Shown here: positions 1 to 18,682 of the stretch, one piece after another
Layout of the letters: each line of letters opens with the position of its first letter
Numbering within the stretch: the stretch's first letter is position 1
Origin: Thiohalobacter sp.
Lineage (GTDB): Bacteria; Pseudomonadota; Gammaproteobacteria; DSM-19610
DNA: 33,865 nt
Assembly: GCA_027080445.1 (NCBI GenBank)
Contig: JALWRY010000496.1
Coordinates: 1-33,865 of the forward strand
Direction: 5' to 3'
Program-made: the position numbers and the translations under genes
Notes under the pieces: generated by a model
What the model was told of the DNA's origin: nothing
Database searches by the model: none
The model's input: only the letters and a program-made list of their open reading frames with translations

Positions 1-445
1 TCATGGGTTCGGGGAATACCGAAGCGCGGTACGCCGCGCCCACCTGCGTGGTCTGCAGGTCTGTACACACCTGATTGTCGGCCTGCCTGGCGAACGCCGT
101 TCCGACTGCCTCACCACACTGGAACGTGTGCTTGAACACGGCGTGCAAGGCCTGAAACTGCACCCCCTGCATGTGGTAAAAGGCACGATGCTCGCCAATC
201 AGTGGCGACGCGGTGAATACACAGCATTGCCACTGGATACCTATATTTCCATCGCTGCCGATTTGATCCTGTTGACGCCTCCCGAGGTTATCTATCACCG
301 GGTGACGGGAACCGCTTCGAGTCAACTGCTCCTTGCGCCAACCTGGTGTTCCTGGAAGTGGCGCGTACTCAACCGCCTGACCGCGGAACTTCACCAGCGC
401 CGGATGATCACGCCCCGGACACACACCCCGGGAACACTAAACTGA
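1..445 (+). CDS. Radical SAM protein, TIGR01212/YhcC family (5'-truncated by window edge)
   Basis: Frame 2 is open from base 2: HGFGEYRSAV...VCTHLIVGLPGE...GLKLHPLHVVKGT...LTPPEVIYHRVTG...LLAPTW. This matches the C-terminal half of the YhcC family as I recall it. Confidence 0.85.
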   Translation, partial: HGFGEYRSAVRRAHLRGLQVCTHLIVGLPGERRSDCLTTLERVLEHGVQGLKLHPLHVVKGTMLANQWRRGEYTALPLDTYISIAADLILLTPPEVIYHRVTGTASSQLLLAPTWCSWKWRVLNRLTAELHQRRMITPRTHTPGTLN

Positions 446-2430: not shown

Positions 2431-3489
2431 ATGATTGCCAACCGCCTGGTCTTTCGAAGGATGCTCAGCTGGATTGCGGAAACCGGAACCCGTTTTTCCG
2501 GCAGCCCGGAACAGCAAGCTGATCCTGCCATCCTCAGTGATGACTTTATCTTCACCAGCGCCCCCTACGCCATGAGCCATGCCTCGACCATCGCCGCCTC
2601 CGGCGGCAGGCTGGTTGCGGCCTGGTTTGGCGGATCACTGGAATCCCGCCCTGACGTTGGCATCCAGGTTTCCCTGAATGATGGTAGCGGCTGGTCAACG
2701 CCGTTCGAAGTCGCCAATGGCATACAGCCCGACGGCAGCCGCTACGCGTGCTGGAACCCGGTACTGTTTCAGCCCGATTCAGGTCCCCTGATGCTCTTCT
2801 ATAAAGTCGGGAGAAACCCGAGAAGCTGGTGGGGCATGTACACGGAATCCACTGACCATGGACAGACCTGGTGTACACCCGGGCGTCTTGCCGAAGGCAT
2901 ACTCGGTCCCGTCAAGAACAAACCCGTGCAGCTGCCGACAGGGGAACTGCTAAGTCCCTCCAGCACCGAACACGACAACTGGCGCATTCATATCGAGCAT
3001 AGTAACAACCTGGGGAAATCCTGGACACGCATCAACCCGATCGAACACGACCATGGCATTGCCGCCATCCAGCCGAGTATCCTTACCCATGGCGAAAACC
3101 GTCTACAGCTCATCTGCCGAAGCCCGCACAAACGCATCGCGGAAAGCTGGTCCAGTGATGGCGGAAAAACCTGGAGCCGCTTACAACTCACCCCATTGAA
3201 AAACCCCAACTCGGGTACCGACGCAGTCAGCCTTGCCGATGGCCGTCAGCTACTGGTTTATAACCCCTCGACCCGCCGACGCACACCCCTGAACGTGGCG
3301 CTGTCGCATGACGGCAGGCACTGGCAGGACTGCCTGGTACTGGCCCGGGGCTTCGGGGAATACTCCTACCCCGCCGTCATCCAGACCGGCGACGGCCTGG
3401 TACATATCACCTACAGCTGGAACCTGTCTCGCATTCGCCACGTTGTGCTCGACCCGGAAAAACTCCCGTGTGGCTATCCCGGGCAGTAA
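2431..3489 (+). CDS. BNR/Asp-box sialidase-like (exo-alpha-sialidase family) protein
   Basis: Five Asp-box-like motifs (SLNDGSGW, STDHGQTW, SNNLGKSW, SSDGGKTW, SHDGRHW), plus CWNPVL, GPVKNKP, IQP, NPNSG and YSYP. No clear signal peptide. Confidence 0.8.
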   Translation: MIANRLVFRRMLSWIAETGTRFSGSPEQQADPAILSDDFIFTSAPYAMSHASTIAASGGRLVAAWFGGSLESRPDVGIQVSLNDGSGWSTPFEVANGIQPDGSRYACWNPVLFQPDSGPLMLFYKVGRNPRSWWGMYTESTDHGQTWCTPGRLAEGILGPVKNKPVQLPTGELLSPSSTEHDNWRIHIEHSNNLGKSWTRINPIEHDHGIAAIQPSILTHGENRLQLICRSPHKRIAESWSSDGGKTWSRLQLTPLKNPNSGTDAVSLADGRQLLVYNPSTRRRTPLNVALSHDGRHWQDCLVLARGFGEYSYPAVIQTGDGLVHITYSWNLSRIRHVVLDPEKLPCGYPGQ

Positions 3490-5777
3490 ATATCCCTGTC
3501 CGTCCTTACCCCGGCGCTTTCGTATCAAGCGCTGCCCTGATACTGCCTGCCGCCGTCCTGGTAGCCCCCCACCTGGGCGAAGCAGCCTATCTACTGCTTA
3601 CCCTGGGCGGCATTTATGCACTGTTGCGTCGGGAAAACGGCAAGGAAGCCAGTCAACGGCTCAAAAACGTGCAGTTACTCAGCCTGCTCACGCTGGGCTT
3701 TTACCTGGTCGCCTTTACCTCGCAATTTATTTCCGGCCCTGTCTCCACGGCATCGTGGAACCCCGGCGGCCTGCGCGAGTTCCTTGCCGCCCCGTTTATC
3801 GGCCTGTGGCTGCCGGGCCGTATCAACACACGCTTTCTCATGCCGGCCATCAAAGTCTGCGCACTACTGGTCTTCGCTGTAGCGCTATACCAGTTCCTGC
3901 AAGGTACAGACCGGCCCGGGGGAGCTGTCAACCCACTGATATTCGGACTCCTGTCATTATTGCTTGGCTTCTTTTCCCTGGTCCGTCTACCGCTGGAATC
4001 GACACCGGAAAAACTCTTATCGCTGGCCGCTTTTTCTTCCGGGTGCATGGCTTCCGTGCTTTCCCAATCCCGTGCAACCTGGATGATGTCGGTTTTTCTG
4101 CTCGCCTGCATCCTCTTCGTCTGGCGCAGAAACGGCCAACTGACCCGGCGTGTGGCACTGGGAATGTCCGGCCTGTTTCTGGCGCTGGCATTGCTCTCGT
4201 CATATATTCCTGTCGTGCAAGAGAGAATTTCCTCCGGCCTGAAGGACTATCACACGTTCAACATGCACGACGCATGGAACACCTCGTTCGGCCAACGCAT
4301 CATTATGTGGAAAGGCGGTCTGTTGGCGGCCCGGGAAAAACCGGTTCTCGGCTGGGGCATCGCCAATACCCGGTCGGCTGCCGCTTCAGAACTTGAATCC
4401 CCCGCCATGAAAAAGGTCGTTCTGGGATATAACCATTTACACAATGAATATATCACCAACCTGGTGGCAAAGGGTCTGCCGGGCCTGCTGAGTGTGCTGT
4501 TACTGCTTTTCGTCCCACTAACAATTTTCCTGCGTCATCGCGGTAATCCTGAGCACCTGGTCTACCAGGGTATCGGTTCCCTGCTATGTATCGGTTACGC
4601 GTTTTCCGGTTTGAGCAACCAGGCCTTTGGTGATGACACGCTGAATATTTTCTTTGTCTTTTTCCTGGCAATGACACTTCCCCGGGCCGGTTTTATGCGA
4701 GGTCGCAACAAAAACACCACGGACAAATCGCACCGGATCTGGCTGCTGCAAAGCCACAATATCGGTGACAACAACCAGGCGCTGGCGCTGGCGGAATCGC
4801 TGGGGCTCCCTTACGAGACAAAGCGCATCGTTCGTCGCCACAAGGGACTGATATCCCGGTTGGCCTGGAAACAGTTGCTTGGCGTTACACTGGCCGGCAT
4901 CGATCGCTCCCGTTCAAGTCCTCTCGCCCCGCCCTGGCCTGAGCTGGTGATCAGCGCCTCCCGCACCAGTGAGATGGTCGCAAGGTGGATTGCCAGAAGG
5001 TCCGGCGGACATACCCGACTGGTTCACCTGGGCAGTCCCAAAGGCCCTCTTGAGGCATTCGACCTGATCATTGCCACCCCCCAACACCCCCTGCCGGAAA
5101 GAAACAATATCCTGGTAATCGACCTCCCCCTGCACCGTATATCGCCTGAGCGCCTGCATAAGGCGGCCGCTGAATGGCGCCCGGCATTCTCTCACCTGAA
5201 ACGCCCCTATACCGCCGTACTCGTTGGCGGGAATTCCGGAGAGTTTATCCTGGACTGCAATACCGCACGCCGCCTTGCCCAACGGGTCAATACACTGTCA
5301 CATGCCTCCGGCGGCTCGGTACTGGTCACAGACAGCGCCCGCACACCGCCTGCGGCCTATGATGAACTTGTTCGCCAACTGACCGTACCCGCCTATATTC
5401 ACCGCTGGAAAGACAGTGCGGACAATAACCCTTTCCATGCCTATCTCGCCCTCGCTGAGCAACTGGTGGTGACAGCGGAAAGTACTTCCATGCTGGTCGA
5501 GGCCAGCGCCACCGGGAAACCCGTATTCATGTTCGACTTTGGTCACGAACACGGCCACGGGAAAAACATAAAAGCAGGATATTGGTACAGGATGATACGC
5601 CACCTGAAACGGCAGCATTGTCCGCGTGACGTAGGCAGCATACATCAAATATTGATCAATTGCGGCCGTGCACGCTGGCTGCATGACGAGGCGCCGGCTG
5701 AAAAACCAGGAAAGAAACCCGGCGTTATACCCTGTGGCCTTCAACGCGCTGTGGCGCGTGTACAACGTCTACTCTAG
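3468..5777 (+). CDS. Fusion of an O-antigen ligase/Wzy_C membrane domain and an ELM1/GtrOC1-family putative glycosyltransferase domain
   Basis: N-terminal ~400 aa are multi-TM with SQSRATW, R..MWKGG...PVLGWG and HLHNEY. The C-terminal part has GDNNQALALAE, PWPELVI, FDLIIATPQH, VLVGG, SARTP, NPFHAYL and VTAESTSMLVEASATGKP. One uninterrupted frame; exact start uncertain. Confidence 0.8.
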   Translation: MWLSRAVNIPVRPYPGAFVSSAALILPAAVLVAPHLGEAAYLLLTLGGIYALLRRENGKEASQRLKNVQLLSLLTLGFYLVAFTSQFISGPVSTASWNPGGLREFLAAPFIGLWLPGRINTRFLMPAIKVCALLVFAVALYQFLQGTDRPGGAVNPLIFGLLSLLLGFFSLVRLPLESTPEKLLSLAAFSSGCMASVLSQSRATWMMSVFLLACILFVWRRNGQLTRRVALGMSGLFLALALLSSYIPVVQERISSGLKDYHTFNMHDAWNTSFGQRIIMWKGGLLAAREKPVLGWGIANTRSAAASELESPAMKKVVLGYNHLHNEYITNLVAKGLPGLLSVLLLLFVPLTIFLRHRGNPEHLVYQGIGSLLCIGYAFSGLSNQAFGDDTLNIFFVFFLAMTLPRAGFMRGRNKNTTDKSHRIWLLQSHNIGDNNQALALAESLGLPYETKRIVRRHKGLISRLAWKQLLGVTLAGIDRSRSSPLAPPWPELVISASRTSEMVARWIARRSGGHTRLVHLGSPKGPLEAFDLIIATPQHPLPERNNILVIDLPLHRISPERLHKAAAEWRPAFSHLKRPYTAVLVGGNSGEFILDCNTARRLAQRVNTLSHASGGSVLVTDSARTPPAAYDELVRQLTVPAYIHRWKDSADNNPFHAYLALAEQLVVTAESTSMLVEASATGKPVFMFDFGHEHGHGKNIKAGYWYRMIRHLKRQHCPRDVGSIHQILINCGRARWLHDEAPAEKPGKKPGVIPCGLQRAVARVQRLL

Positions 5778-6710
5778 CTGTTCCAGCAGATTTTTTGCAC
5801 TTCGATAGTGGGCTTCAAGCGGGTAGTCCGACTTCTTCTGACGAATCGGGTAACAACGTACATGGAACCCGAACGGTTCCCGATTCCACAGGAATTCCTC
5901 CCAGCCATTTGATTGCACATCCGGGAACCCGTGAACGGCAAAACCGGTTTTGCTGAAATAACCACGTCGTTTTGGCGTCAGGCTGAGATGATCCGGGAAA
6001 AACAGGTCCAGCATACGCCGCACCACCCTGGGCTTGAATACCGGTTGAAAACATTCGACCTTCACGGAAGGATGTTCCCTGTGGTAATGAAGCAGTCGCC
6101 AGCCGGTATCCCGTGCACGGCCTACGCGCCGCCGCCTGGCAAGCGTCAACCGTGCAATCACGGCATTGAGCCGGGAGCCCGGGTGCTCCCTGAGACCGAG
6201 CCAGGCCGGGTCGCCTTCATAGTCGGGGGAAAAGTCCAGCCTGTCCCGGTGAATCTTGTGCAGATCAATAAAAGTACAATGCGCACAGGGGAAATAGCGG
6301 AATTTACTGGATCTTTTCGGATGCCACGGCGCCCCCAGGATCGCTACATCCCGGGAGCGCATATAGGCAATGACATCCTTGATCCAGTTTCTGCGGATAA
6401 TAAAAAAATCCGGGTCCAGGATCAGCAGGTAGCGTGTCGATGCAATCCGGGTGATTACATTCAGCCCGGCGGCATGGTGGTAGCTGGCAGAACCATAGCG
6501 CCGGTCTTCATATTCAGCGCCATCAAATACCTCGAAACCGGGTTCACAACGGTATAGTCGCCCGCTGGAACCGGGCGGTGAATTTTCTGCCACCAGCCAA
6601 TGAAACCTGACACCCGGGTTGAGCTGTTTCACCAGGTCGAGGTTCAGACGAAGCCACTCGGCGGACTCGTAGGATACCGTACAGAGCGTCAGTTCCGGGC
6701 AGGATGGCAT
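5769..6710 (-). CDS. Hypothetical GT-A-fold (glycosyltransferase family 2-like) protein
   Basis: 313 aa ORF with N-terminal TLCTVSY..VAENS, HAAGLN and DxD motif LILDPDF. Last gene of the minus-strand glycan operon. Confidence 0.6.
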   Translation of the reverse strand: MPSCPELTLCTVSYESAEWLRLNLDLVKQLNPGVRFHWLVAENSPPGSSGRLYRCEPGFEVFDGAEYEDRRYGSASYHHAAGLNVITRIASTRYLLILDPDFFIIRRNWIKDVIAYMRSRDVAILGAPWHPKRSSKFRYFPCAHCTFIDLHKIHRDRLDFSPDYEGDPAWLGLREHPGSRLNAVIARLTLARRRRVGRARDTGWRLLHYHREHPSVKVECFQPVFKPRVVRRMLDLFFPDHLSLTPKRRGYFSKTGFAVHGFPDVQSNGWEEFLWNREPFGFHVRCYPIRQKKSDYPLEAHYRSAKNLLEQLE

Positions 6711-6728
6711 CAGGCAACTCCCCCGGCT

Positions 6729-7238
6729 TTATGAAAGTGCTGACACCCGGGCCTTGCCCCGGGACAGGACTTTCCCGATCAGGTCACACACTTCACGAAC
6801 GGCGCCATACCCCCCGGCCCGTTCCGTCCGATACACTGCATGCGCAATCACATCGGGGTGCGCATTCCGTACAACGATCGGCAGGCCAACGTTGCGAAGG
6901 ACATCGAGGTCGTTGATATCATTGCCTACGAAAGCCACCTCCGACAGCATGATGCCCCGCTCCGCAGCAAAATGTTCCAGCGCGATGCATTTGTCCCTGA
7001 CATCCTGTATACAATGAATCTTCAGCTTGGCTGCCCTGGCCGACACCACCGGGTTGGCCTCTGTTGAGATAATGACGGTTTCGATACCGAGCCGATCAAG
7101 CTTCTGCAGACCGATACCGTCACCACGAAAGCAACGCACCGCTTCGCTACCATCCTGGATAACGTACACCATGTCATCAGTAAACACGCCATCAAAATCA
7201 AAAGCCACGAGGCGAATGTGACGGATAAGCGCTTCCAT
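6729..7238 (-). CDS. KdsC-type HAD phosphatase (Kdo-8-P / Kdn-9-P phosphatase family)
   Basis: HAD motif I FDFDGVFTD, DGIG, GNDINDL, and GGYGAVREVCD. Confidence 0.9.
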   Translation of the reverse strand: MEALIRHIRLVAFDFDGVFTDDMVYVIQDGSEAVRCFRGDGIGLQKLDRLGIETVIISTEANPVVSARAAKLKIHCIQDVRDKCIALEHFAAERGIMLSEVAFVGNDINDLDVLRNVGLPIVVRNAHPDVIAHAVYRTERAGGYGAVREVCDLIGKVLSRGKARVSALS

Positions 7239-8113
7239 CAGCCCGCTTTCCTGCCGAACAGACGCCAGGCCTTGTTTTTGAGTTTCCTGGCCGTATCCAG
7301 GGGTACGCGTGATGTCAGGCGCTGCATATAGGCCGAGGCGAATTCAGGCTCGATGACAGGGTGGGAACTGATGGCCCAATCACCTGTGTCGTAACCCGTA
7401 AGCGCCATATAAGGCAGGTAGGCCGGCCTGAAGAGTTCAACATCCTCCTCGGTAAACCAGTGGCGCCAGTCGCCGCTTGCCTTCTTGCGCACCACCTTGG
7501 CGTTACCGGTGGAATTCGGTACTTCGGCATCCGCTTCAATCCCGAACCCGAGATAGTCGTTGAGTGCCGTAAAATTTTTACTGACCATATTTTCGTAGGT
7601 AAAAAGGAACCAGTCGTCACCCAGGCCACGAATAAAGTCGGACATCTGTTGATAGCGGTCATATTCCTCGTCAACCACGGACTGCAGATCTGCCGGCCAG
7701 TCACCGTGCCCGGTATAACGACAGAGCTCGTGGAAGGGGACAGACAGGGGGTCTCGTTCTTTCTTTTTCACCAGTTCAAGGTGCTCATTGAATTGTTGCC
7801 TGTGCCCAACGCAACCGCGGTTCCAACGGTACAACATCCTGCTGACGGCAACGTCCCGCGGATCGCGTGCGATCCAGACCTTGCGGTCATAGTGTTCATG
7901 CTTCAGATGCTCCCGGTATAAATCAAAGTCCTTGCCTTTGCGTGCCTCGTAGGTGTGCTTGTAGACGGCATTTTTATAATCACCGATATACTTGCCCGGT
8001 TTGCCCCCGGAAAAAGCCTCGCAGCCGGGCAGACCTGCGGCAATCTTGTACAGCAGCGCCGTTGTGCCCGACTTGCCCAGCCCCAGTATCAATATTTTCA
8101 TTTCATGCTCCAC
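7238..8113 (-). CDS. Sulfotransferase-like P-loop protein
   Basis: 5'-PSB-like GLGKSGTT, 3'-PB-like RDPRDVAVS, YE motif (FTYENM) and C-terminal RKKASGDWRHWF. Start at 8113 or 8104. Confidence 0.7.
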   Translation of the reverse strand: MEHEMKILILGLGKSGTTALLYKIAAGLPGCEAFSGGKPGKYIGDYKNAVYKHTYEARKGKDFDLYREHLKHEHYDRKVWIARDPRDVAVSRMLYRWNRGCVGHRQQFNEHLELVKKKERDPLSVPFHELCRYTGHGDWPADLQSVVDEEYDRYQQMSDFIRGLGDDWFLFTYENMVSKNFTALNDYLGFGIEADAEVPNSTGNAKVVRKKASGDWRHWFTEEDVELFRPAYLPYMALTGYDTGDWAISSHPVIEPEFASAYMQRLTSRVPLDTARKLKNKAWRLFGRKAG

Positions 8114-8116
8114 TCA

Positions 8117-9520
8117 TCAGGCGCTGATTCGAAATATCTGGTCATGAATCTGCTCGGCCCTGAGCTCGGTTGTATCGCCCAGCGCCTGCTGAAACAGCGA
8201 TATCCGTTCACGCAAGGCCTCAAGGGTAATGCCGGGATAACGGTGGCGATGAAATGCCGGTGGCGCGTGGGTTCCCGGCAGATCACGCTTTGTCCATTTG
8301 ATCAGTCGCCGTCCATTGGCTGTCATATAACCCGCCAGGTAGGTCAACAACGCCGGTTTCGGTAATCCGGCCTTGCCAGTCGTGATATTTTCCAGCACAT
8401 CCACCATGCGATCACACGCCAGCGGGCCATCCTGTGCCACGATATAGCGGTCGAACAGCGCCTTGCGCTCATCGCCAGCTGCAGCACCCATCTCACCGGA
8501 CAAAATCCTGCCCAGGGTATCTTCCAGTTCCTGCTCACTGAAACACGGGTAACTCAACTGGTTCGGGAGATGATAAAACCCCTCGTCTATGGCTTCATCG
8601 ATGTTCGGACGGTAACTGATGGCTGGCACCCCCATGCTGTACGCCTCGACGGCTGTGGTGCAGCCGTTATGAACCAGCGCCTTTGCCGCCATTAACCAGG
8701 GTACGACATTACCCTCGTTGCTTACCTTGACGTGTTGGCAGGTCGCCGCGATACGCTGGTAGATCGCCGGGTTTTCGGTCGGATGCGGCCGGACAATGAC
8801 TGTAAAATCCGGGAACGCCCGGTCCAGCACCGGGATCAATGCCTTGAACGCTTCAAACAGGGCCTGTTTGTGATCTCTCAGGGCTTCGGCAAATTCGACA
8901 CTCATCCCCCTGGCGGCTTTCCCGAATTTGGCTTTCTGCCCAGGTCTTGTTACCGGCCTGAACAGATTCTGCGCGGGATAGAAGGCATTGACGTGGTTGA
9001 AGTTGGTGTTAAGCAGGATAAATTTTCCGTGTTCCCGGCGCAGCGCATCGACCTCGTCCCGGTAGAAGGCGCCCATTTCACGGCGCAACATATCAGCGCG
9101 CGGGTTACCAGTGATATGTATCGGCTTTTCCCCGGGCATCTGCGGGTACTGACGCCACAGGCTGGCATTCTCTTCACCCCAGGCAAAGAGATGAGAAACA
9201 TATTTCAACGACACGGGTGACAAGCGGCGGGAAAAATACATGTCTGCGGGCAGATGTACCAGTGCTTCCTCATCCCAGGACACAATTTTCTGGCCGAGCT
9301 TGTGCATGATCCTGAACATGTTCAGGTTCATACGGGTAAAACTCTTGCACAGGTACAGGCTTCTGGGCAGCGAGGCGATTCTCAAATCGATCTTGCGATG
9401 TGAACCAATGATCGAGGGGAAACCCCGTTTCGCCGCGACACAGGCCAGTAACAACTTTGGATCAAGTTCACGCACCTGGTTTTCAACCGGGATAATGAGT
9501 GATACTTTTTGTGTCGTCAT
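8117..9520 (-). CDS. Surface carbohydrate biosynthesis protein (TIGR04396-like, GT-B-like), paralog 2
   Basis: IPVENQVRELDPKLLLA, WDEEAL, FAWG, TGNPRADML, NTNF, VRPHPTE and HNGCTTAVEA. Confidence 0.7.
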   Translation of the reverse strand: MTTQKVSLIIPVENQVRELDPKLLLACVAAKRGFPSIIGSHRKIDLRIASLPRSLYLCKSFTRMNLNMFRIMHKLGQKIVSWDEEALVHLPADMYFSRRLSPVSLKYVSHLFAWGEENASLWRQYPQMPGEKPIHITGNPRADMLRREMGAFYRDEVDALRREHGKFILLNTNFNHVNAFYPAQNLFRPVTRPGQKAKFGKAARGMSVEFAEALRDHKQALFEAFKALIPVLDRAFPDFTVIVRPHPTENPAIYQRIAATCQHVKVSNEGNVVPWLMAAKALVHNGCTTAVEAYSMGVPAISYRPNIDEAIDEGFYHLPNQLSYPCFSEQELEDTLGRILSGEMGAAAGDERKALFDRYIVAQDGPLACDRMVDVLENITTGKAGLPKPALLTYLAGYMTANGRRLIKWTKRDLPGTHAPPAFHRHRYPGITLEALRERISLFQQALGDTTELRAEQIHDQIFRISA

Positions 9521-10953
9521 ATCATTGCACGTCCACTCAGGGCCTGTACCCTGAACATGACGTCAGATACCGGTTCGATATGGATCTCGTTCCTGTAACC
9601 GAGCAGTTGCTGAAACCGCGCCATACGACCGCGAATATCGTCGAGGGGAAGCGCCGGGTAACGATGCAGCTGGTACTCGGGTTTGTTATGCGAGCCGGGC
9701 AGGTGTGATTTCACCCGCCGGGCCAGATCAAGCCCCCTGGCCAGTATCCAGCGTTGCAACCCGCCGGAAAGGGATGACGATGAAGAATCATCGGGGTACT
9801 TCTCCAGGCTCTCCAGCACGCGCACCATCCTTTCGCAGGCCAGCGGGCCGTCCTGGGCCTCCAGATAACGGTCAACCAACGACTGGCGCTCTGCGCCTGC
9901 CGGTGGCCCAAGTTCACCCCGCAGCACGCTGTCCAGCGTCTGCTTCAACTCATCAAAACTGAAACACTCGTGGCTGAGCCCGTTGGGCAGGCGATAAAAA
10001 CCTGTGTCATAGTCTTCATTGACCACTGCCCGGTAGCTAATGGCCGGCACATCCATCACAAAAGCCTCGACGGCCGTGGTGCAGCCGTTGTGGACCAGTG
10101 CCTTCGCCGCCATCAACCAGGGGACAACATTCCCCTCATTGGTCACCCGGACACGCTGGCAACGGGCGGCGATCTCCCGGTAGACATGATGATTCTCGGT
10201 CGGGTGGGGTCGCACCACGATAGTATGGGCGGGGAATGCCGCCTCCAGCGCCGGGATGAGCGCTTTAAACCGCTCGAACACGGCAAGCTTGTGTTCATAT
10301 AAACCCTTGGCGTATTCCCGGCTCATACCCCGGGCCGCGCGACCGAAACGGGCTTTCTCGCCAGGCTTTTTCACCGGCCTGAACAGATTAATGTCCGCAC
10401 CAAACGCATTTACATGATTGAAGTTGGTATTGATCAGGATAAAATCACCGTACTTCTCCCGCAGCGCTTCGGCATCATGCTCGTAATAGGTGCGGATCTC
10501 GGTTCGCAGCATATCGCCACGCGGATTTCCGACCGCGTGTATCGGCGTCTCTTTCGGTGTATGCGGGTATTGCCGCCACAGATCAACATTGTCCTGGCCC
10601 CAGGCAAACAGGCTCAGCACATACTTGATCGTCGCCGCATCGAGTCGTCGCGAGAAATAGGTCTTCGGTGGCAGGTGTACCAGTGCCTCCTCGTCCCAGG
10701 CAACGATTTTATGGCCAAAGCGCCGCGCAATGCGGAAAAACAGCAGGCTGCGAATCGTCATGCTCTTGGACAGGTAGATGGCGCGGGGAAAGGCATCGAT
10801 ATTAAATTCCATCTCCCGACGTGAACCGACAATCGATGAAAACCCGTGCTTTGCGGCGACACAGGCAAGCAACAGCTTGGGGTCCAGTTCGCGAACCTGA
10901 TTTTCGACAGGAATCAACAGTAATGGACGTGTTCCGTTCATCATCGATGTCAA
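9517..10953 (-). CDS. Surface carbohydrate biosynthesis protein (TIGR04396-like, GT-B-like), paralog 1
   Basis: Same motif set as the neighbouring ORF. Start is TTG 10953 or ATG 10944/10941. Confidence 0.7.
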   Translation of the reverse strand: MTSMMNGTRPLLLIPVENQVRELDPKLLLACVAAKHGFSSIVGSRREMEFNIDAFPRAIYLSKSMTIRSLLFFRIARRFGHKIVAWDEEALVHLPPKTYFSRRLDAATIKYVLSLFAWGQDNVDLWRQYPHTPKETPIHAVGNPRGDMLRTEIRTYYEHDAEALREKYGDFILINTNFNHVNAFGADINLFRPVKKPGEKARFGRAARGMSREYAKGLYEHKLAVFERFKALIPALEAAFPAHTIVVRPHPTENHHVYREIAARCQRVRVTNEGNVVPWLMAAKALVHNGCTTAVEAFVMDVPAISYRAVVNEDYDTGFYRLPNGLSHECFSFDELKQTLDSVLRGELGPPAGAERQSLVDRYLEAQDGPLACERMVRVLESLEKYPDDSSSSSLSGGLQRWILARGLDLARRVKSHLPGSHNKPEYQLHRYPALPLDDIRGRMARFQQLLGYRNEIHIEPVSDVMFRVQALSGRAMI

Positions 10954-10954
10954 C

Positions 10955-12913
10955 CTAGGAAGCCGCTTCCAGTAATTGATCCGGCTTGTCCTTCATGGCC
11001 AGCAGGATGCGTACCGCCAGTTTGTCACCACTCAGGCCATGGTAATCCAGCACCTCCAGGGGTGTTCCGCATGCCGGATGATTATCGACCGCGAACTTGA
11101 GCAACGGCCTGCCGCGCAGCAGCTCAGATGACATCAACGCATTCAGCAGCGCATCACCAAGTCCACCGTAACCGGCATGATCATCCAGTACAAATACGCT
11201 TTCTGTATCGCCGATGACCGTTTCCAGCCAGTCAACATCAACCCGGTTGAGCCAGGGCATATTGATGACCTTTAATGAAAACCCGTGCGACTTTAAACGT
11301 TCCGCCGCTGTCAGCGCCTCGTTCAACATCACCGGACCGTAGCTGAACAGGACAGCGTCATCCCCTTCATTCAACACCGTGCCCTGCCCAAAGGTGAAAC
11401 GGCCATCTTCTGCGACAGGGATCACACCCGGCGACGGACCGATCACCAGGCGTATCATGCAACTCTGTTGCGCTTCATTCACACACCAGCGCAAGGCCTG
11501 GCGGGTTTCGACCTCATTACCGGGTTCAAGGATGATGCAGTCCGGCAAGGCGCCGAACAGGGAGATATCCCGCAGGCTCTGGTGCGACTTGCCCGGCCCG
11601 GCCGGAATCAGTCCGGCGTAATGACACACATAGATAATTTTTGTTTTTTCCGTTGCATTGTTATAGATCTGTTCGTTGGAGCGCGAGGCAAGGAACACCC
11701 CGAAGGAATTCACTATGGGCAGGCAGCCATTCAGCGCCAACCCCCCCGCCGTGGACACCATATCCTGTTCGGCAATACCGCTTTCGATAAACCTGTCCGG
11801 GAAGGCATTTTCGAAGGGCCGTAAACCACAGTCGGCGGAAAGATCCGCATCCATAACCACGATATCCTGTCTTTCCCGCCCCAGTTCAAGCAGCGCCTTG
11901 CCATAGGCGGTGACCACCTTGTCCGCCCGGTCTTTTAGCCTCACGCGGTTTCTCTCGCGACGATCAATGACCTCGGTAGCCAGTTCGCCCAGACCGAAAG
12001 CATCCAGCTGCGCGTTGATGCGTGCGGCGATTTCTGCATAGGCTGTTTCAAATGCCTCATCGTCCGGCGCACCGGAATGCCAGGGATACAGACCGTTTCC
12101 GGCTTTCAGGGCCGCAGGTCCTTCCATGAAGGAAACGCCCTTGCCCTTGATGGTGTCAGCAATCAACACTTTCGGCTTGTCACTGACCTGCCGGAATTCG
12201 GTGAAGACGCGTTCCAGTTCCGCAAAGTCGTGGCCATCACAACGCGCTGTATGCCAGCCGAAAGTCTCGAATTTTCTCTCCAGCTCACCAAGATCGATGA
12301 TCGCTTCCACCGGCTTGTCGGACTGAATCCTGTTCATATCAACAATGGCGGTAATATTGTTGACCGACTGGTGGGCCGTGGTCTGCAGTGATTCCCAGAC
12401 CTGCCCTTCCTGCAACTCGCCATCACCGGTCATCACGAATACCTGTCCGCCGGCGCCTTGCAGTTTTTTCGCCAGCGCCATGCCCTTGGCCTTGGATATT
12501 CCCATACCCAGTGATCCCGAGTTGGTCTCTATGCCGGGCAGGCTGACATCCGGGTGACCGTGTGTACCACCGAGCCGACGCAGGTTGATAAACAGCTCTT
12601 TGGGCAGGATGCCCAACGAATACAGGACCGCGTAGTACGCGGGCGCATCGTGGCCCTTGGAAGAAAAATAGATATCGCGGTCCGGGTGGTCGAATCCCAG
12701 CTCAAGGGTATTCATACCGGCATGGTAGAGCCAGGCAACGATATCCAGCGAGCTTAAACTGGAACCCAGGTGTCCCGAACCTGCCCGTTTGACAGTGGCC
12801 AGCGTATTGGCGCGACACATATCCGCCAGCAGGCGGAGCGTGTCATGTGCATCCAGGCCGCTTTCGCGTACCCGCTGAAATTCATTTGCCGCAATAAGTT
12901 TTATTTCTAGCAT
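10955..12913 (-). CDS. Single-chain transketolase-like ThDP-dependent enzyme
   Basis: GHLGSSLS, SKGH, GHPD, GSLGMG, ThDP-binding GDGELQEG...N, TIKGKG, GIAEQDM, SHQ, and a C-terminal transketolase domain. Confidence 0.85.
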   Translation of the reverse strand: MLEIKLIAANEFQRVRESGLDAHDTLRLLADMCRANTLATVKRAGSGHLGSSLSSLDIVAWLYHAGMNTLELGFDHPDRDIYFSSKGHDAPAYYAVLYSLGILPKELFINLRRLGGTHGHPDVSLPGIETNSGSLGMGISKAKGMALAKKLQGAGGQVFVMTGDGELQEGQVWESLQTTAHQSVNNITAIVDMNRIQSDKPVEAIIDLGELERKFETFGWHTARCDGHDFAELERVFTEFRQVSDKPKVLIADTIKGKGVSFMEGPAALKAGNGLYPWHSGAPDDEAFETAYAEIAARINAQLDAFGLGELATEVIDRRERNRVRLKDRADKVVTAYGKALLELGRERQDIVVMDADLSADCGLRPFENAFPDRFIESGIAEQDMVSTAGGLALNGCLPIVNSFGVFLASRSNEQIYNNATEKTKIIYVCHYAGLIPAGPGKSHQSLRDISLFGALPDCIILEPGNEVETRQALRWCVNEAQQSCMIRLVIGPSPGVIPVAEDGRFTFGQGTVLNEGDDAVLFSYGPVMLNEALTAAERLKSHGFSLKVINMPWLNRVDVDWLETVIGDTESVFVLDDHAGYGGLGDALLNALMSSELLRGRPLLKFAVDNHPACGTPLEVLDYHGLSGDKLAVRILLAMKDKPDQLLEAAS

Positions 12914-13686
12914 TGTTTCGATTGCCCCTTTAACAAATACGGGAAGTCAGTAACGGACGGCAGTTCAGCCTGACAGGTGTCGACAAGGTACTCAGCCAGA
13001 CCCCAGTCGTACTCGGTGTTGACATCAAGACCTTCATAGCCCTCGGTAAAAAATGGCATCAGCACGTCACCGGCGATACTGCCCTGTTCAAACACCACAC
13101 GTGACCAGGCAATCTCCAGGCTGGCATTCTGTACATACACTTCAGGCAGCGCCGGGTACTGACTGCTGTGCCATGGCAGACCGGAGGAACGCAATGGCAT
13201 CAGCGGAACCATGCGCTTGCCCTGGAGCACCCACATCTTGCCGGGGTGCTGCTGGCATTTCTCGACAGCCCGCAACGAATCGATACCGCTTTCTGCACGG
13301 AAAGCCTGCCAGGCGCGCTGAATCGTCTGCGGCAGGCGAAAAGGACTGGTTGGACGCAGGATACTGAAACAGTCATATTCACGGCCTTCGGCCTTCAGCC
13401 TGTCCAGCGTATAGGCCAGCCAGCCAATATCCGGGGAAACATCGCCCGCGAACCGCTCCGGGCGCAGGAAAGGAACCTCCGCGCCATAGTGCCGGGCGAT
13501 CCCGGCGTAGTACTCCGAATCCGTGGAAACAATCACATCGGAAAAAATACCGCTCTGCAAGGCGGCCGAAATCGTGTAGGCGATCATGGGATGTCCTGAC
13601 AGATCGCGGATATTCTTGTCCGCGACCCGTTTTGAACCCGCCCTCGCCGGGATCAAGGCTACGACATTGTGATCTGTTTCTGTCAT
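12907..13686 (-). CDS. Acylneuraminate cytidylyltransferase family (NeuA-like CMP-ulosonate synthetase)
   Basis: IPARAGSKRVADKN, VSTDS, VPFLRP, LRPTSPFR, QNAS and DVNTEYD. Confidence 0.9.
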   Translation of the reverse strand: MTETDHNVVALIPARAGSKRVADKNIRDLSGHPMIAYTISAALQSGIFSDVIVSTDSEYYAGIARHYGAEVPFLRPERFAGDVSPDIGWLAYTLDRLKAEGREYDCFSILRPTSPFRLPQTIQRAWQAFRAESGIDSLRAVEKCQQHPGKMWVLQGKRMVPLMPLRSSGLPWHSSQYPALPEVYVQNASLEIAWSRVVFEQGSIAGDVLMPFFTEGYEGLDVNTEYDWGLAEYLVDTCQAELPSVTDFPYLLKGQSKQC

Positions 13687-13688
13687 GG

Positions 13689-15161
13689 CTAAACCAGGCC
13701 CGGATCAATATTGATGTAGATGTCTTTCAGTTCGGAGTACACATCGAGCGCCTCGGGACCCGGCTCACGCGAGCCGTTGCCCGATTGCTTCAGGCCGCCA
13801 AACGGCATGTGCGGTTCGCTACCGTGCGTGCCGCCGTTAACGACAGCCACACCGGCCTGAATCTTCCGGGTGAACTCGGTGGCGCGGTGAATACTGCGTG
13901 TATGAATGGCGGCTGTCAGGCCATAGGGCGAGTCATTCGCCATGTGCAGGGCCTGTGCAAAATCTCTGGCCCGGTAAAGGCAGGTAATCGGACCAAACAG
14001 TTCCGTCACAGAGATTTCATCATGGGGGTCGACATTCTCGATAATCGTCGGCGCCATGTAGAAACCCTTTGCATGTGCCTCATCGTCCAGCCTGTGTCCG
14101 CCGAGGCTTATCGATGCACCGGCCTGCCTGGCCCTTTCGACAACAGCCAGCATGTTGTTGAGCTGTTTCTCGTTTATGACCGGCCCGAGGTCGTCACTGT
14201 CATCGGGACCGAGTTTGAGCGACCGGGCACGTTCTACAAGGCTGTTACGGAACTGGTCATAAACGGCATCAAAAACGATAATGCGACTCGCCGCTGCACA
14301 GCGTTGGCCGGCATTACTGAAAGCGGCAAGCAGCGTCCAGTTCACAGCCTTATCCAGGTCGGCATCGTCACAGACCAGCAAGGGATTCTTGCCACCCAGT
14401 TCAAGCGATACCTTCACCAGCCGCTCACCGGCTGTTTTGGCAATGCGTCGTCCCACGGCAGTAGAACCGGTGAAACTGATGACATCCACACCGGAACTGG
14501 CCGCCAGTGGCGCACCGGCTTCCTCACCCAGCCCCTGGATAATATTGAGCACACCATCAGGCAGACCGGCTTCTTCCGCAATCAGGCCGAATAACCAGGC
14601 GGTAGCCGGCGTATCCTCGGCCGCTTTAAGCACCACGGCATTGCCACAGATCAGCGCCGGAAAGACTTTCCAGGCAATGTTGGCGATCGGTGTATTGGCG
14701 GCGATAATCAACCCCGCTACGCCCATAGGCTGGCGTATGATGCTGGCGTACTTGTCCGGTATTGCGCTGGTCGTGGTACGTCCATAAAAGCGTCGCCCTT
14801 CCCCGGCCATGAACTCACCCTGCGCAATAGCTGCAGCCGTTTCACCCGTGGCGGCCGAAAAACTCATGCCGGTTTCCAGGGCAACCATCCCGGCAATATC
14901 ATCCTGGTAACTCCGCATCAGATGCGCAATGGTGTGCAACACCTCGCCCCGTTGTACCGGGCCCAGCCCGGCCCAGCCCGGCTGGGCATCTCTTGCCACC
15001 TGGATGGCCTGTTCAACATCAACCGCCGATGAGCGGCTTGCCCCGAACAGTTTCCCGCCGCTGTGAGGAGACAGCTTGTCAAACACCCTGCCGGACTGCG
15101 CATCGCTTTGCTCGCCATTGATCCAGTTGGGAATGATTGCAGGAATTAAATCGGTGAACAT
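13689..15161 (-). CDS. NAD(P)-dependent aldehyde dehydrogenase
   Basis: FTGSTAVG, catalytic Glu in LELGGKNP, catalytic Cys in NAGQRC, ELFGP and PFGGLKQSG. Start reassigned to ATG 15161 (MFTDLIP) because the longer ORF overlaps the SDR gene. Confidence 0.9.
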   Translation of the reverse strand: MFTDLIPAIIPNWINGEQSDAQSGRVFDKLSPHSGGKLFGASRSSAVDVEQAIQVARDAQPGWAGLGPVQRGEVLHTIAHLMRSYQDDIAGMVALETGMSFSAATGETAAAIAQGEFMAGEGRRFYGRTTTSAIPDKYASIIRQPMGVAGLIIAANTPIANIAWKVFPALICGNAVVLKAAEDTPATAWLFGLIAEEAGLPDGVLNIIQGLGEEAGAPLAASSGVDVISFTGSTAVGRRIAKTAGERLVKVSLELGGKNPLLVCDDADLDKAVNWTLLAAFSNAGQRCAAASRIIVFDAVYDQFRNSLVERARSLKLGPDDSDDLGPVINEKQLNNMLAVVERARQAGASISLGGHRLDDEAHAKGFYMAPTIIENVDPHDEISVTELFGPITCLYRARDFAQALHMANDSPYGLTAAIHTRSIHRATEFTRKIQAGVAVVNGGTHGSEPHMPFGGLKQSGNGSREPGPEALDVYSELKDIYINIDPGLV

Positions 15162-15180
15162 CAGAATAATCCGTCTGTGA

Positions 15181-16014
15181 CTACCAGGCAGTAAAACCAC
15201 CGTCGACCACCAGTTCCGTACCGGTAACGTATGACGATGCACCTGATGCGAGGAACAACAAGGGACCGCACAGGTCATGGTTGACCGCCATCCTTCCCAT
15301 GGGTACCCGGTGGCAAAATTTCGCCCTGAAGATTTCATCCTGCCCGCCCAGCACACCACCTGGCGACAGGGCATTGACCCGCACACCATGTGGCGCCCAG
15401 TGTGTCGCCAGGTAGCGGGTCAGGTTGACAACGGCCGCCTTGGATGCACCGTAAGCCGGGGGTTTAATAAAAGGCGGATCATCCTGTATGTGGTCATAAA
15501 ATCGCACATCGGGTGAAACACCGGCATACAGCGAGCCGATATTAATGATTGAGCCATGGCCGGCCCGCAACATGGGTTTGCCGAATACCTGGCTGGTCAG
15601 GAAAAGCCCCAGTGTATTCACCTCCAGTATCTCGCGGTTTTCCTCCAGGGGAATATCTTCCAGCCGGTAGCCGGTTTCCGTGCTGGCAGGCGGTCGATCA
15701 ATACCGGCGTTATTCACCAGGATCGAGGGAACGCCCAAAGTAGCCATACACGCTTCGCAAGCCTCTTCCAGTACGGCGCGTTCGCGAATGTCTGTACGCT
15801 GCAGTCTGAGATGCGTTTCATCGAAGCGCGCCTGCAGGCCGAGAAAATCTTCGGATACCGGCGTACCCGGCAAATCCAGGGCAAATACCCGCGCACCGGC
15901 TTCAAGCAATGCTTCGATCCAGACGGAACCAAGCCTGCCCAGTGCGCCGGTGACAACGGCAATATCAGACTCCAGGCTGAAGAGCTTGTTCAGGAGGCGG
16001 CCAGTTGCTGCCAA
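15181..16014 (-). CDS. Short-chain dehydrogenase/reductase, PtmA-like
   Basis: TGALGRLG, NNAG, NIGSLY, YGASK, RVNALSPGG and VDGG. The SP...Y insertion before YxxxK resembles Campylobacter PtmA-type SDRs of nonulosonate loci. TTG start uncertain. Confidence 0.85.
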   Translation of the reverse strand: MAATGRLLNKLFSLESDIAVVTGALGRLGSVWIEALLEAGARVFALDLPGTPVSEDFLGLQARFDETHLRLQRTDIRERAVLEEACEACMATLGVPSILVNNAGIDRPPASTETGYRLEDIPLEENREILEVNTLGLFLTSQVFGKPMLRAGHGSIINIGSLYAGVSPDVRFYDHIQDDPPFIKPPAYGASKAAVVNLTRYLATHWAPHGVRVNALSPGGVLGGQDEIFRAKFCHRVPMGRMAVNHDLCGPLLFLASGASSYVTGTELVVDGGFTAW

Positions 16015-17069
16015 CGCTCTGCACCATTCAGCTTCTCGAAGGAAATATCCTCATCTTCCGCCATTGGCTGGCAGGTGACCCGACCAATGACCTTGTCCAT
16101 ATCATAGGGCGGCAAACCATCCCCCGGCGATTTGATCGCCAGGTCTTCGCGCCGCAGCGTGTGCCCTTCCGGCAGGTCGCGCGCGGCTACCAGCTTCTTG
16201 CCCATTTTAATGATCGGTTCGACTTCACTCTCGTAAGTACGTTTGACGCCGTCACCGATCGCCACCTTCAAACGACTCAAATCACGAACCAGCTTGCGGA
16301 ATCCGCCTGGCTCAAGTGAAAAGGCATGGTCCGTACCCTTCCAGGTATGGTTAAAGGTGAAATGCTTTTCAACAATCCTCGCGCCCAGCATAAAGGCGGC
16401 GATCGCCATGGCGATACCGTTGTCGTGTGATGACAGACCAATGGTGGCATGGGGAAAACGTTCACGGAATGTTGTGATCACACGAAGATTCAGCTCCTCG
16501 AATTCTGCCGGGTAACCTGCAGTGCACTGTAGAATGCCGAGCCTGGGGTTGATTGGCATGATGGCGTCGTAGGCCCGGTTGACATCATCCATGGAGCCAC
16601 CGCCGGTACTGACTATCATGGGCTTTCCAAACGCGGCAATATGGGTCAGCAGGGGTATGTTTTTCAGGTCTCCCGAGGCCACCTTGAAAGCCGGTATATC
16701 GAGCTTCGCCAGGAAATCCGCGCTGGGGATATCAAAGGCCGTCGCAATCACCGTAACGCCGATTTCCCTGGCGTAGTCCAGTAACTCACGGTATTCACTC
16801 CAGCCGAATTCCAGAAACTCACGGTGCTCACCGTAGGTTTTTCCGAAACTGTTCTCGTTCTCGTAAGGCTTGTTATAGCTCGCCTTTGTGTACAGGCTGC
16901 GGTTGTCGCGTTTCTGCAACTTCACTGCATTCGCACCACATTCCCTTGCCACACGAAACATCTCCATGGCGGTTTCCAGCTTGCCCTGATGATTATTTCC
17001 AATTTCCGCAATGACATAACACCCGCCATCATCCTGGATGTTTACGCCATCGATTGAGAGTTTCCGCAT
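15990..17069 (-). CDS. N-acetylneuraminate synthase family (NeuB) with C-terminal SAF/antifreeze domain; NANS/Kdn-9-P synthase-like
   Basis: IAEIGNNHQG, KLQKR, SFGKTYGEHREFLEF, KVASGD, VSTG, LQCTAGYP, GLSSHD, EKHFT, GTDH and KSPGDGLPP. Confidence 0.92.
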   Translation of the reverse strand: MRKLSIDGVNIQDDGGCYVIAEIGNNHQGKLETAMEMFRVARECGANAVKLQKRDNRSLYTKASYNKPYENENSFGKTYGEHREFLEFGWSEYRELLDYAREIGVTVIATAFDIPSADFLAKLDIPAFKVASGDLKNIPLLTHIAAFGKPMIVSTGGGSMDDVNRAYDAIMPINPRLGILQCTAGYPAEFEELNLRVITTFRERFPHATIGLSSHDNGIAMAIAAFMLGARIVEKHFTFNHTWKGTDHAFSLEPGGFRKLVRDLSRLKVAIGDGVKRTYESEVEPIIKMGKKLVAARDLPEGHTLRREDLAIKSPGDGLPPYDMDKVIGRVTCQPMAEDEDISFEKLNGAERWQQLAAS

Positions 17070-18154: not shown

Positions 18155-18646
18155 CTAGCCGAATACCCGCCGGTAGACCGGCAGCAGTCGCTTCAGTAAC
18201 GGTTCTATTCTCCTGTACAGGCCGAGGGATTCAACATCCAGCCCATCGAGAAAATTCTTTACCTCCAGTCCCAGTTCCGTATCCCCCTGCGTCACCAGCC
18301 GGCGCTGGAACACCAGGGTATCCGGGTCTTCTTCACCGCTGATCAGCGCCAGGAAGTCGTAGACGGTCCCGGCGATAGACAGATCGCAGGTTCTGCGCTG
18401 ATGGCAGGCCATCAGACGGTTTCCGTCAAAGGTGAGTCCAATCGTCATGCCTGCGTCGCAGATCCTGATGGCTAGCGTGCGATTTTCCAGGAAATCCAGG
18501 TCACCGTCGCGCATTGGCTCATCAAGGGCCTTGTTGAGTACACGTGCCAGAAAGTGAGAATGTAGCGGGTCGGGCAACAGGGACAGGGGCGCCGCAAGCT
18601 GGCGGGGTAACCGGGGCGAGGTATTATTTGCGTGATCAGGCGTCAT
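18155..18646 (-). CDS. ubiT: Anaerobic ubiquinone biosynthesis accessory factor UbiT (SCP2 domain)
   Basis: GDLDFLE, EDPDTLVFQRRL and GDTELGLEVKNFLD signature. Start chosen at ATG 18646 from the promoter position; alternative 18679. Confidence 0.9.
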   Translation of the reverse strand: MTPDHANNTSPRLPRQLAAPLSLLPDPLHSHFLARVLNKALDEPMRDGDLDFLENRTLAIRICDAGMTIGLTFDGNRLMACHQRRTCDLSIAGTVYDFLALISGEEDPDTLVFQRRLVTQGDTELGLEVKNFLDGLDVESLGLYRRIEPLLKRLLPVYRRVFG

Positions 18647-18682
18647 GGTTGGAATACTATAGCCATTCGCCGCAACCATCCT

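What the first reader, a model, noticed from the sequence alone, without database searches (positions are those of the whole stretch)
5769..17069. Candidate undescribed ulosonic-acid pathway: NANS/Kdn-type synthase, phosphatase and CMP-synthetase plus transketolase, SDR and ALDH
Seen: a tightly coupled 10-gene operon (neuB-like, SDR, ALDH, neuA-like, transketolase, 2x GT-B-like, sulfotransferase-like, kdsC-like, GT-A-like). It has no NeuC epimerase, NeuD, or Leg/Pse dehydratase, aminotransferase or acetyltransferase genes in this window. Established: synthase + HAD phosphatase + cytidylyltransferase is the phosphorylated-intermediate route used for Kdn in Bacteroides and Neu5Ac in animals, and that route needs no transketolase or ALDH. 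Inference: the transketolase supplies a non-standard aldose-phosphate or adds a C2 branch, and SDR+ALDH oxidise a terminal CH2OH to COOH. The product would be an N-free ulosonic or dicarboxylic 'ulosaric' acid (e.g. Dha-like or nonulosaric), possibly sulfated. I know of no characterised pathway with this gene set.
Basis: partly seen in the sequence, partly recalled or inferred. Interest (0 to 1): 0.85.

Follow-up and report, generated by a model that had tools for sequence, protein, structure and literature searches.

The report
Kdn pathway with tail-trimming transketolase
This is a real ten-gene operon, conserved in gene order across distant bacteria, that likely builds the sialic-acid-like sugar Kdn and then, using a transketolase that has lost its phosphate-binding site, is predicted to cut two carbons off its tail to give a doubly acidic surface sugar with no described biosynthetic route.

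Summary
The ten-gene operon is real, and its core recurs in order in Gammaproteobacteria, Desulfobacterota and metagenomes. Of 45 well-covered NeuB loci, SDR and NeuA are in 45, ALDH in 38, transketolase in 33. In reverse, 9 of 10 sampled transketolase loci have NeuB, SDR and ALDH alongside. Synthase and phosphatase carry Kdn-9-phosphate-route signatures. The SDR's best solved relative is the search model used for the C8 oxidoreductase ElaC. The transketolase keeps every thiamine and catalytic residue but has lost its phosphate and 2-hydroxyl binding residues. Best reading (0.45): the SDR oxidises C8 of Kdn, the transketolase removes C8-C9, and ALDH oxidises C7, giving a 3-deoxy-heptulosaric acid (predicted L-arabino, not plant Dha). 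Against it: 6 of 45 loci keep ALDH without the transketolase. NeuB-SDR-transketolase also occurs without ALDH in phage head-gene blocks and actinomycete clusters. My searches found no paper on the cassette; nothing is shown biochemically. The scan noted this cassette before in at least eight other genomes.

The parts
15990..17069 (-). NeuB-family ulosonate synthase of the phosphorylated-substrate (NANS/Kdn-9-P) type
   Evidence: PF03102+SAF; below the TIGR03569 and TIGR03586 cut-offs. Asp at the N. meningitidis E134 position and no Arg at R314, the eukaryote-type changes reported in PMC8208679.
15181..16014 (-). NAD-type SDR of the PtmA/ElaC group; predicted C8 oxidoreductase; start uncertain
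   Evidence: Best PDB hit 6UH2, E 2e-37 against 5e-28 for the next; 6UH2 was the search model for ElaC (PMC13656337). Invariant Asp after beta2, Ser, YxxxK and loop Tyr. Present in 78 of 78 loci with downstream sequence.
13689..15161 (-). Aldehyde dehydrogenase; predicted to oxidise the C7 aldehyde to carboxylate
   Evidence: PF00171. Catalytic Asn156, Glu254 and Cys288 invariant in 14 of 14. Present in 38 of 45 loci.
12907..13686 (-). NeuA-type CMP-ulosonate synthetase
   Evidence: PF02348. NeuA/CMAS structures hit at E 1e-15 to 1e-19, KdsB at 1e-9 or weaker. Present in 45 of 45 loci.
10955..12913 (-). Remodelled transketolase-family ThDP enzyme lacking the sugar-phosphate site; predicted to cleave C8-C9 from 8-oxo-Kdn
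   Evidence: Alignment to PDB 4KXU; site survey of 240 homologues; present in 33 of 45 loci.
9517..10953 (-). TIGR04396 GT-B protein 1; predicted CMP-ulosonate transferase
   Evidence: TIGR04396 over cut-off. Model pLDDT 94.6, GT-B fold, Z 17-19 to TarL, capsule polymerases and UDP-GlcNAc 2-epimerases. Family consensus carries D-E-E-G and HP motifs, like bacterial sialyltransferases (PMC2169525 abstract); the window protein has Ala for the Gly.
8117..9520 (-). TIGR04396 GT-B protein 2 (paralogue)
   Evidence: TIGR04396 over cut-off; 58% identical to protein 1.
7238..8113 (-). Sulfotransferase-like protein (accessory)
   Evidence: PF00685 E 4e-8; no PDB hit; present in 23 of 45 loci.
6729..7238 (-). 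KdsC-family HAD phosphatase with a Kdn-9-phosphate-type signature
   Evidence: TIGR01670. Invariant E60/K71 in 10 of 10 align with E56/K67 of PDB 3E81. The genome's second KdsC has Arg and Asn there. The role of these residues is recalled.
5769..6710 (-). GT-A/GT2-like protein, lineage-specific accessory
   Evidence: No Pfam hit; several homologues carry PF00535; found in 1 of 45 loci, limited by the 10 kb flank.

Best explanation
The operon encodes a Kdn-type pathway plus three tailoring enzymes that likely shorten the sugar's tail. Predicted steps: NeuB condenses mannose-6-phosphate with PEP to Kdn-9-phosphate, and the HAD enzyme removes the phosphate. The SDR oxidises C8, making a terminal ketol whose C7/C6 configuration matches a transketolase donor. 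The remodelled transketolase removes C8-C9, leaving a C7 aldehyde; the fate of the two-carbon unit is unknown. ALDH oxidises C7 to carboxylate. NeuA activates the sugar as a CMP derivative (before or after tailoring), and the TIGR04396 proteins transfer it to a surface glycan or glycolipid, which may be sulfated. The predicted product is 3-deoxy-L-arabino-hept-2-ulosaric acid, a diastereomer of plant Dha (D-lyxo). Shown: gene content, synteny and active-site residues. Inferred: every substrate and reaction.
For: (1) Kdn backbone: synthase has the eukaryote-type Asp and lacks the R314 Arg; phosphatase has E/K as in 3E81, unlike the genome's other KdsC; no amino-sugar genes in the window. (2) The SDR acts next to the terminal carbon: top NCBIfam hits include mannonate oxidoreductase, gluconate 5-dehydrogenase, PRK09186 and KduD, all below cut-off; best structure 6UH2 links it to ElaC, proposed to act at C8. 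(3) The transketolase is catalytically intact: His48/88/120/279, Asp164, Asn194 and Glu382 are invariant in 240 homologues (one gap). The human S345 position is Asp in 240 of 240, D424 is Pro in 240 of 240, H416 is Tyr/Phe/Leu and R474 is Ile/Ser (roles of these residues recalled). Other split transketolases in the same genomes keep the Asp. Loss of D424 fits a donor whose matching oxygen is the ring oxygen (inference). (4) SDR and transketolase travel together without ALDH: 6 of 10 viral transketolase contigs, the other 4 cut at the contig edge; Streptomyces plasmid L096 and metagenome loci L136 and L147. In the actinomycete type an aminotransferase and a reductase follow, as expected for an aldehyde product. 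(5) Transketolase orthologues found by genome sampling sit beside NeuB+SDR+ALDH in 9 of 10 fetched loci; 5 of 5 further genomes hold both orthologues; 31 of 31 metagenome loci with at least 4.9 kb upstream carry a NeuB, ALDH or NeuA motif (counted by hand).
Against: 6 of 45 loci keep an intact ALDH without the transketolase, and 6 of 45 have neither. A transketolase orthologue was found elsewhere in only 1 of 17 such genomes and an ALDH orthologue in 1 of 12 (mostly draft MAGs). So ALDH does not strictly need this transketolase, and the product of SDR-only loci is unexplained. ElaC is proposed to be a reductase, and only from structure and docking. The R318 position lies at an alignment gap, and a Lys/Arg two residues upstream may replace it. 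No acceptor for the two-carbon unit is identified. No cultured organism with both the cassette and a solved glycan was found. The tree meant to count independent losses was not obtained.
Confidence: 0.45

Rival explanations
1. Terminal oxidation: SDR and ALDH oxidise C9 of Kdn to carboxylate, giving a nonulosaric acid. The transketolase is an optional extra step, for example decarboxylating or extending an intermediate.
For: ALDH lies directly after the SDR and persists intact without the transketolase in 6 of 45 loci; ALDH (38 of 45) is commoner than the transketolase (33 of 45).
Against: The SDR's relatives act on secondary alcohols at the penultimate carbon. SDR+transketolase without ALDH occur in phages, actinomycetes and two chromosome-level MAGs. 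It leaves the remodelled transketolase unexplained.
Confidence: 0.2
2. Carboligation: the SDR makes a carbonyl on the ulosonate and the ThDP enzyme adds a two-carbon or acyl unit, giving a branched or longer (C10-C11) ulosonic acid.
For: ThDP enzymes add acyl branches to keto-sugars (YerE, ErwE; PMC9306805). Loss of the phosphate site fits any non-phosphorylated acceptor. Possible higher-carbon ulosonic acids have been seen by MS (PMC8157484).
Against: Gives ALDH no substrate. The reported higher-carbon compound is triply acetylated, and this operon has no acetyltransferase. No second reductase like YerF/ErwF is in the glycan-type cassette.
Confidence: 0.15
3. The product is plain Kdn or a C8 epimer, and ALDH and transketolase are dispensable or serve salvage or catabolism.
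For: 6 of 45 loci have only NeuB-SDR-NeuA; ElaC-type SDRs serve C8 epimerisation.
Against: No Gfo/Idh/MocA (ElaA-like) partner in the operon. The transketolase has a clade-wide invariant remodelled site and is almost always linked to this NeuB.
Confidence: 0.08
4. The transketolase supplies a non-standard aldose-phosphate (for example threose-4-P or a heptose-7-P) to NeuB.
For: A threose-4-P route would give true D-lyxo Dha after C7 oxidation (stereochemical inference); catalytic residues are intact.
Against: Phosphate-binding residues are replaced, one by invariant Asp. The same NeuB clade occurs without the transketolase in 12 of 45 loci. The phosphatase has the nine-carbon-type signature.
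Confidence: 0.07
5. The ThDP enzyme decarboxylates the ulosonate itself as a 2-oxo-acid donor; ALDH or an acceptor takes the resulting 2-deoxy-acyl unit.
For: ThDP enzymes using hydroxylated 2-oxo acids of C4-C8 as donors are described (PMC9306805).
Against: NeuA, which needs the intact ulosonate, is in 45 of 45 glycan-type loci, and a sialyltransferase-like GT follows.
Confidence: 0.05

Closest known systems
Kdn-9-phosphate route (Bacteroides thetaiotaomicron; animal NANS/NANP). Pathway details recalled; NanS/NanP summarised in PMC8208679 passages
   Same: Phosphorylated-type synthase, HAD phosphatase with the E/K signature, CMP synthetase, no amino-sugar enzymes.
   Different: Adds a constant SDR, and usually ALDH and a remodelled transketolase; dedicated TIGR04396 transferases.
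ElaABC C8 epimerisation of legionaminic acid (Acinetobacter KL49; PMC13656337) and PtmA-like SDRs
   Same: SDR of the same structural group (6UH2), next to a CMP synthetase, proposed to act at C8.
   Different: No ElaA-like partner and no Leg pathway; here the partner is a ThDP enzyme, so the keto group is predicted to be cleaved, not reduced back.
Transketolase (human TKT 4KXU; split transketolase 6YAK)
   Same: Fold, ThDP motif and catalytic His/Glu residues.
   Different: Phosphate-binding Ser, His and Arg and the hydroxyl-binding Asp are replaced across the clade; the phage versions are shortened to about 420 aa.
Acyl-branched sugar pathways (YerE, ErwE; PMC9306805)
   Same: A ThDP enzyme and an oxidoreductase in a surface-glycan cluster.
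   Different: Those act on CDP-4-keto-deoxyhexoses; no NeuB, NeuA or ALDH of this kind.
Dha (3-deoxy-D-lyxo-heptulosaric acid) of plant RG-II
   Same: C7 dicarboxylic ulosonate, biosynthesis listed as unknown (PMC12168206).
   Different: A Kdn-derived product would be L-arabino, not D-lyxo; whether plants have these genes was not tested.

Membership tests
Kdn-9-phosphate pathway | NeuB-family synthase of the phosphorylated-substrate type | tested here: met
   Asp at E134 and no R314 as in PMC8208679. Sequence signature only; no direct alignment to NANS or BT1714 was available.
Kdn-9-phosphate pathway | HAD phosphatase with the Kdn9P-type Glu/Lys | tested here: met
   NF058599 score 95 is below its cut-off of 180.
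Kdn-9-phosphate pathway | NeuA-type CMP synthetase | tested here: met
Kdn-9-phosphate pathway | Only synthase, phosphatase and CMP synthetase are needed; the end product is Kdn | tested here: not met
   SDR in 45 of 45, ALDH in 38, transketolase in 33 loci. The product itself cannot be tested here.
Bacterial Neu5Ac / Leg / Pse pathways | NeuC, or dehydratase + aminotransferase + acetyltransferase, in the cluster; synthase over the TIGR03569/TIGR03586 cut-off | tested here: not met
   One unlinked 2-epimerase-family gene elsewhere.
ElaABC C8 epimerase | ElaC-like SDR | tested here: inconclusive
   Indirect, through 6UH2; the ElaC sequence was not compared.
ElaABC C8 epimerase | ElaA-like Gfo/Idh/MocA oxidoreductase | tested here: not met
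   None among the window's ORFs.
Canonical transketolase | ThDP-binding and catalytic residues | tested here: met
Canonical transketolase | Sugar-phosphate site (R318, S345, H416, R474) and D424 | tested here: not met
   the R318 mapping is uncertain.
Bacterial CMP-ulosonate transferases | GT-B fold with D/E-D/E-G and HP motifs | tested here: met
   Closest folds also include TagF/TarL and 2-epimerases, so family placement remains open.
Any of the above | Enzymatic activity and product structure | not testable with these tools
   Needs biochemistry.

The most novel reading that the evidence does not exclude
The cassette is the first biosynthetic route to a 3-deoxy-heptulosaric acid. It works by a new reaction, ThDP-dependent trimming of a sialic-acid tail. 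The same NeuB-SDR-transketolase module is reused to decorate bacterial surface glycans, possibly ceramides (a ganglioside-like lipid), flagella and phage particles, and to make a polyhydroxylated building block in actinomycete peptide clusters.
Probability: 0.4. Interest if true: 0.82.

Novelty: new variant of a known kind. Interest (0 to 1): 0.64.

Why it matters
Ulosonic-acid pathways are predicted from gene content, and this widespread clade would be mis-called as Kdn or sialic acid. If the trimming model holds, it adds a new carbohydrate reaction and a new acidic surface sugar. It would also give the first enzymes for making a heptulosaric acid, a class whose biosynthesis is listed as unknown for plant Dha (PMC12168206). 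The pathway can be tested in vitro with six soluble enzymes and purchasable Kdn. The transketolase, which would accept non-phosphorylated substrates, is of biocatalytic interest.

Tried and rejected
Literature: ten full-text searches were run. Six aimed at this cassette or its product and found no description of it; the library lacks most subscription papers. Two papers I wanted (Lewis 2009; the Kdn9P/Kdo8P phosphatase specificity paper) were not held, so those points are recalled. The supplements of PMC8157484 could not be read and may list C7 ulosonic acids by organism. The Magnetospirillum higher-carbon compound was rejected as a match because it is triply acetylated. Split-cluster idea (missing genes elsewhere in the genome): mostly not supported. 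Sphingolipid as the obligate acceptor: rejected; SPT is in 17 of 18 genus members with or without the cassette, and in only 4 of 10 other transketolase-bearing genomes. A NeuB tree to count independent losses was not obtained (script machine lost). The transketolase was not folded, so its site is judged from sequence only. Atlas look-ups gave nothing. A profile search of TIGR04396 against PDB found nothing meaningful. Promoter and terminator scans were at chance level. The plasmid search gave one orthologue and the annotated-phage search none. No known actinomycete product was tied to the module.


Full report
Observation. The window holds ten consecutive minus-strand ORFs from 17069 to 5769, with gaps or overlaps of about 20 nt or less. 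Pfam and NCBIfam name them as NeuB+SAF, SDR, ALDH, CMP synthetase, fused transketolase, two TIGR04396 proteins, a weak sulfotransferase and a KdsC-family HAD. The last ORF is unannotated, but some homologues carry PF00535. The ALDH probably starts at 15161. The genome (2.84 Mb, 92.9% complete) has one NeuB, a separate housekeeping transketolase, a second KdsC and one unlinked UDP-GlcNAc 2-epimerase-family gene. Its nearest NeuB relatives lie in Thiohalobacter and Thiogranum MAGs.

Conservation from the NeuB side. A scan of GTDB genomes found 331 relatives of the NeuB and kept the best 80, mostly Gammaproteobacteria and Desulfobacterota by record title. The SDR follows NeuB in 78 of 78 loci with downstream sequence. 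Of the 45 of 80 loci with at least 5.5 kb downstream, NeuA is in 45, ALDH in 38, a TIGR04396 protein in 38, the transketolase in 33 and the sulfotransferase in 23. Thirty-two have both ALDH and transketolase, 6 ALDH only, 1 transketolase only, 6 neither. Whole-genome searches found a transketolase orthologue in 1 of 17 genomes whose locus lacked it (beside a TIGR04396 gene) and an ALDH orthologue in 1 of 12. Most are draft MAGs, but these two genes look optional. Many of these loci are related, so the counts are not independent events; the tree meant to resolve this was lost.

Conservation from the transketolase side. Orthologues were found in 7 of 399 other genomes of the window's class (one more was not scored). 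In the phylum sample centred on G002 there were 5 matches in 201 genomes, counting the centre; one was only 38% identical. A further class sample gave 5 of 401. Of 10 loci fetched, 9 have NeuB, SDR and ALDH alongside, 9 have NeuA and 7 have KdsC; the tenth is a 2.7 kb contig with NeuA. The five other genomes all hold NeuB and ALDH orthologues, some on separate contigs. In metagenomes, 31 of 80 loci had at least 4.9 kb upstream. Exact motifs found NeuB in 17, ALDH in 22, NeuA in 25 and at least one in all 31 (hand count; exact motifs are a floor).

Backbone. The synthase has Asp where N. meningitidis NeuB has E134 and lacks R314. PMC8208679 (passages) reports both changes for eukaryotic NanS, which uses a phosphorylated substrate and needs a phosphatase. 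The HAD enzyme has invariant E60 and K71, aligning with E56 and K67 of PDB 3E81, whereas the genome's other KdsC has Arg and Asn. That 3E81 is the Bacteroides Kdn-9-P phosphatase and that these residues set its specificity is recalled. With no amino-sugar genes in the cluster, Kdn is the most likely first product (inference).

SDR. Its best solved relative is 6UH2, the molecular-replacement model for ElaC, which is proposed to reduce CMP-8-keto-legionaminate (PMC13656337; first fifth of the text and passages). Other near families (gluconate 5-dehydrogenase, mannonate oxidoreductase, KduD; all below cut-off) act on the carbon next to the terminal one (recalled). An invariant Asp after the second strand suggests NAD.

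Transketolase. Aligned to 4KXU and surveyed over 240 homologues, all ThDP and catalytic residues are kept. The S345 position is Asp and the D424 position Pro in 240 of 240; H416 is Tyr, Phe or Leu; R474 is Ile or Ser. R318 maps to Val or Pro, but at a gap with a Lys/Arg nearby. Other split transketolases from the same genomes keep the Asp. These residues bind the substrate phosphate and the 2-hydroxyl (recalled). The enzyme is therefore unlikely to handle ordinary sugar phosphates. By textbook stereochemistry, oxidising C8 of Kdn gives a terminal ketol with the D-threo arrangement of a transketolase donor, in which the oxygen normally bound by D424 is the ring oxygen. Cleavage leaves a C7 aldehyde, and the ALDH, with intact catalytic residues, would give 3-deoxy-L-arabino-heptulosaric acid. 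Plant Dha is D-lyxo and its synthesis is listed as unknown (PMC12168206 passages).

Other settings. Six of 10 viral contigs with this transketolase read NeuB-SDR-NeuA-short transketolase, with no ALDH; the other 4 are cut at the edge. In the three scanned, the block lies between terminase and portal. A Streptomyces plasmid and two metagenome loci carry NeuB-SDR-transketolase followed by an RraA-like aldolase, an RmlD-like reductase and an aminotransferase, with no NeuA or ALDH detected. The plasmid copy lies beside an NRPS, and homologues are named from many actinomycete genera. This ties the SDR to the transketolase directly and suggests action on the free sugar acid.

Transfer and acceptor. 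The TIGR04396 model is confident (pLDDT 94.6) and GT-B, closest to TarL/TagF, capsule polymerases and UDP-GlcNAc 2-epimerases (Z 17-19, rmsd about 4, about 310 aligned). The family consensus has D-E-E-G and HP motifs, matching bacterial sialyltransferases (PMC2169525 abstract). The acceptor varies. An SPT gene lies upstream in 28 of 43 loci, usually with other sphingolipid-type genes, and this genome has SPT on another contig. SPT is nonetheless missing from 6 of 10 other carriers. Three loci follow flagellar hook genes by my reading of the translations, and here the neighbours are LPS-type genes.

Against the model. ALDH persists without the transketolase in 6 of 45 loci, the SDR-only product is unexplained, the C2 acceptor is unknown and nothing is shown biochemically. 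Terminal oxidation (0.2) and carboligation (0.15; PMC9306805, first third read) remain live. I put about 0.75 on the general claim that this is an undescribed Kdn-tailoring pathway, and 0.45 on the specific trimming mechanism.

Prior knowledge. Six literature searches (listings only) found no description. I noted the tail-cutting idea. The scan's earlier notes then showed the same cassette in eight other genomes, several with the same reading; these are not independent evidence. They gave the leads to phage, actinomycete and sphingolipid settings, which I checked. Verdict: real, conserved, a new variant of a known kind, interest 0.64.

Noticed in passing
window 3468-5777 (+): A 769-aa ORF fuses an O-antigen-ligase (Wzy_C) domain to an ELM1-like domain in one frame; in relative L027 the two are separate genes. 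Its 3' end overlaps the operon's last stop codon.
   Followed up: partly
window 2431-3489 (+): BNR_2 (sialidase-like) protein, E 2e-87, two genes from the operon; it could act on the ulosonic acid.
   Followed up: no
window 22760-29187: Low-GC island with an integrase (28072-29187), a DUF927/DUF6371 protein (24134-26860) and small unknown ORFs; probably an integrative element or satellite.
   Followed up: no
window 346-2384, 18155-18679: Anaerobic ubiquinone genes ubiU/ubiV and ubiT flank the glycan cluster on both sides, suggesting it was inserted into that region.
   Followed up: no
G000 contigs C6 and C224 (L107, L108): Sphingolipid-type gene set: SPT over the NF047599 cut-off, fatty acyl-AMP ligase, and putative ceramide synthase and reductase. 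SPT is in 17 of 18 genus members.
   Followed up: partly
L098, L100-L104 (IMG/VR contigs): Phages carry NeuB-SDR-NeuA and a transketolase shortened to about 420 aa; in those inspected an FkbM methyltransferase follows, and in L098, L102 and L104 the block lies between terminase and portal. Possible virion glycosylation.
   Followed up: partly
L096 18105-25419; L136; L147: Actinomycete-type module NeuB-SDR-transketolase-RraA-RmlD-like reductase-aminotransferase, with HAD and FAD oxidase in some, beside an NRPS or an ATP-grasp ligase; product unknown.
   Followed up: partly
L119, L121, L123: The cassette directly follows flagellar hook-associated genes (read from translations, not scanned); possible flagellin glycosylation.
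   Followed up: no
L014 8633-9826, L018, L019: A 397-aa protein with no Pfam or NCBIfam hit sits between kdsC and neuB in several loci whose cassette lacks ALDH and transketolase.
   Followed up: partly
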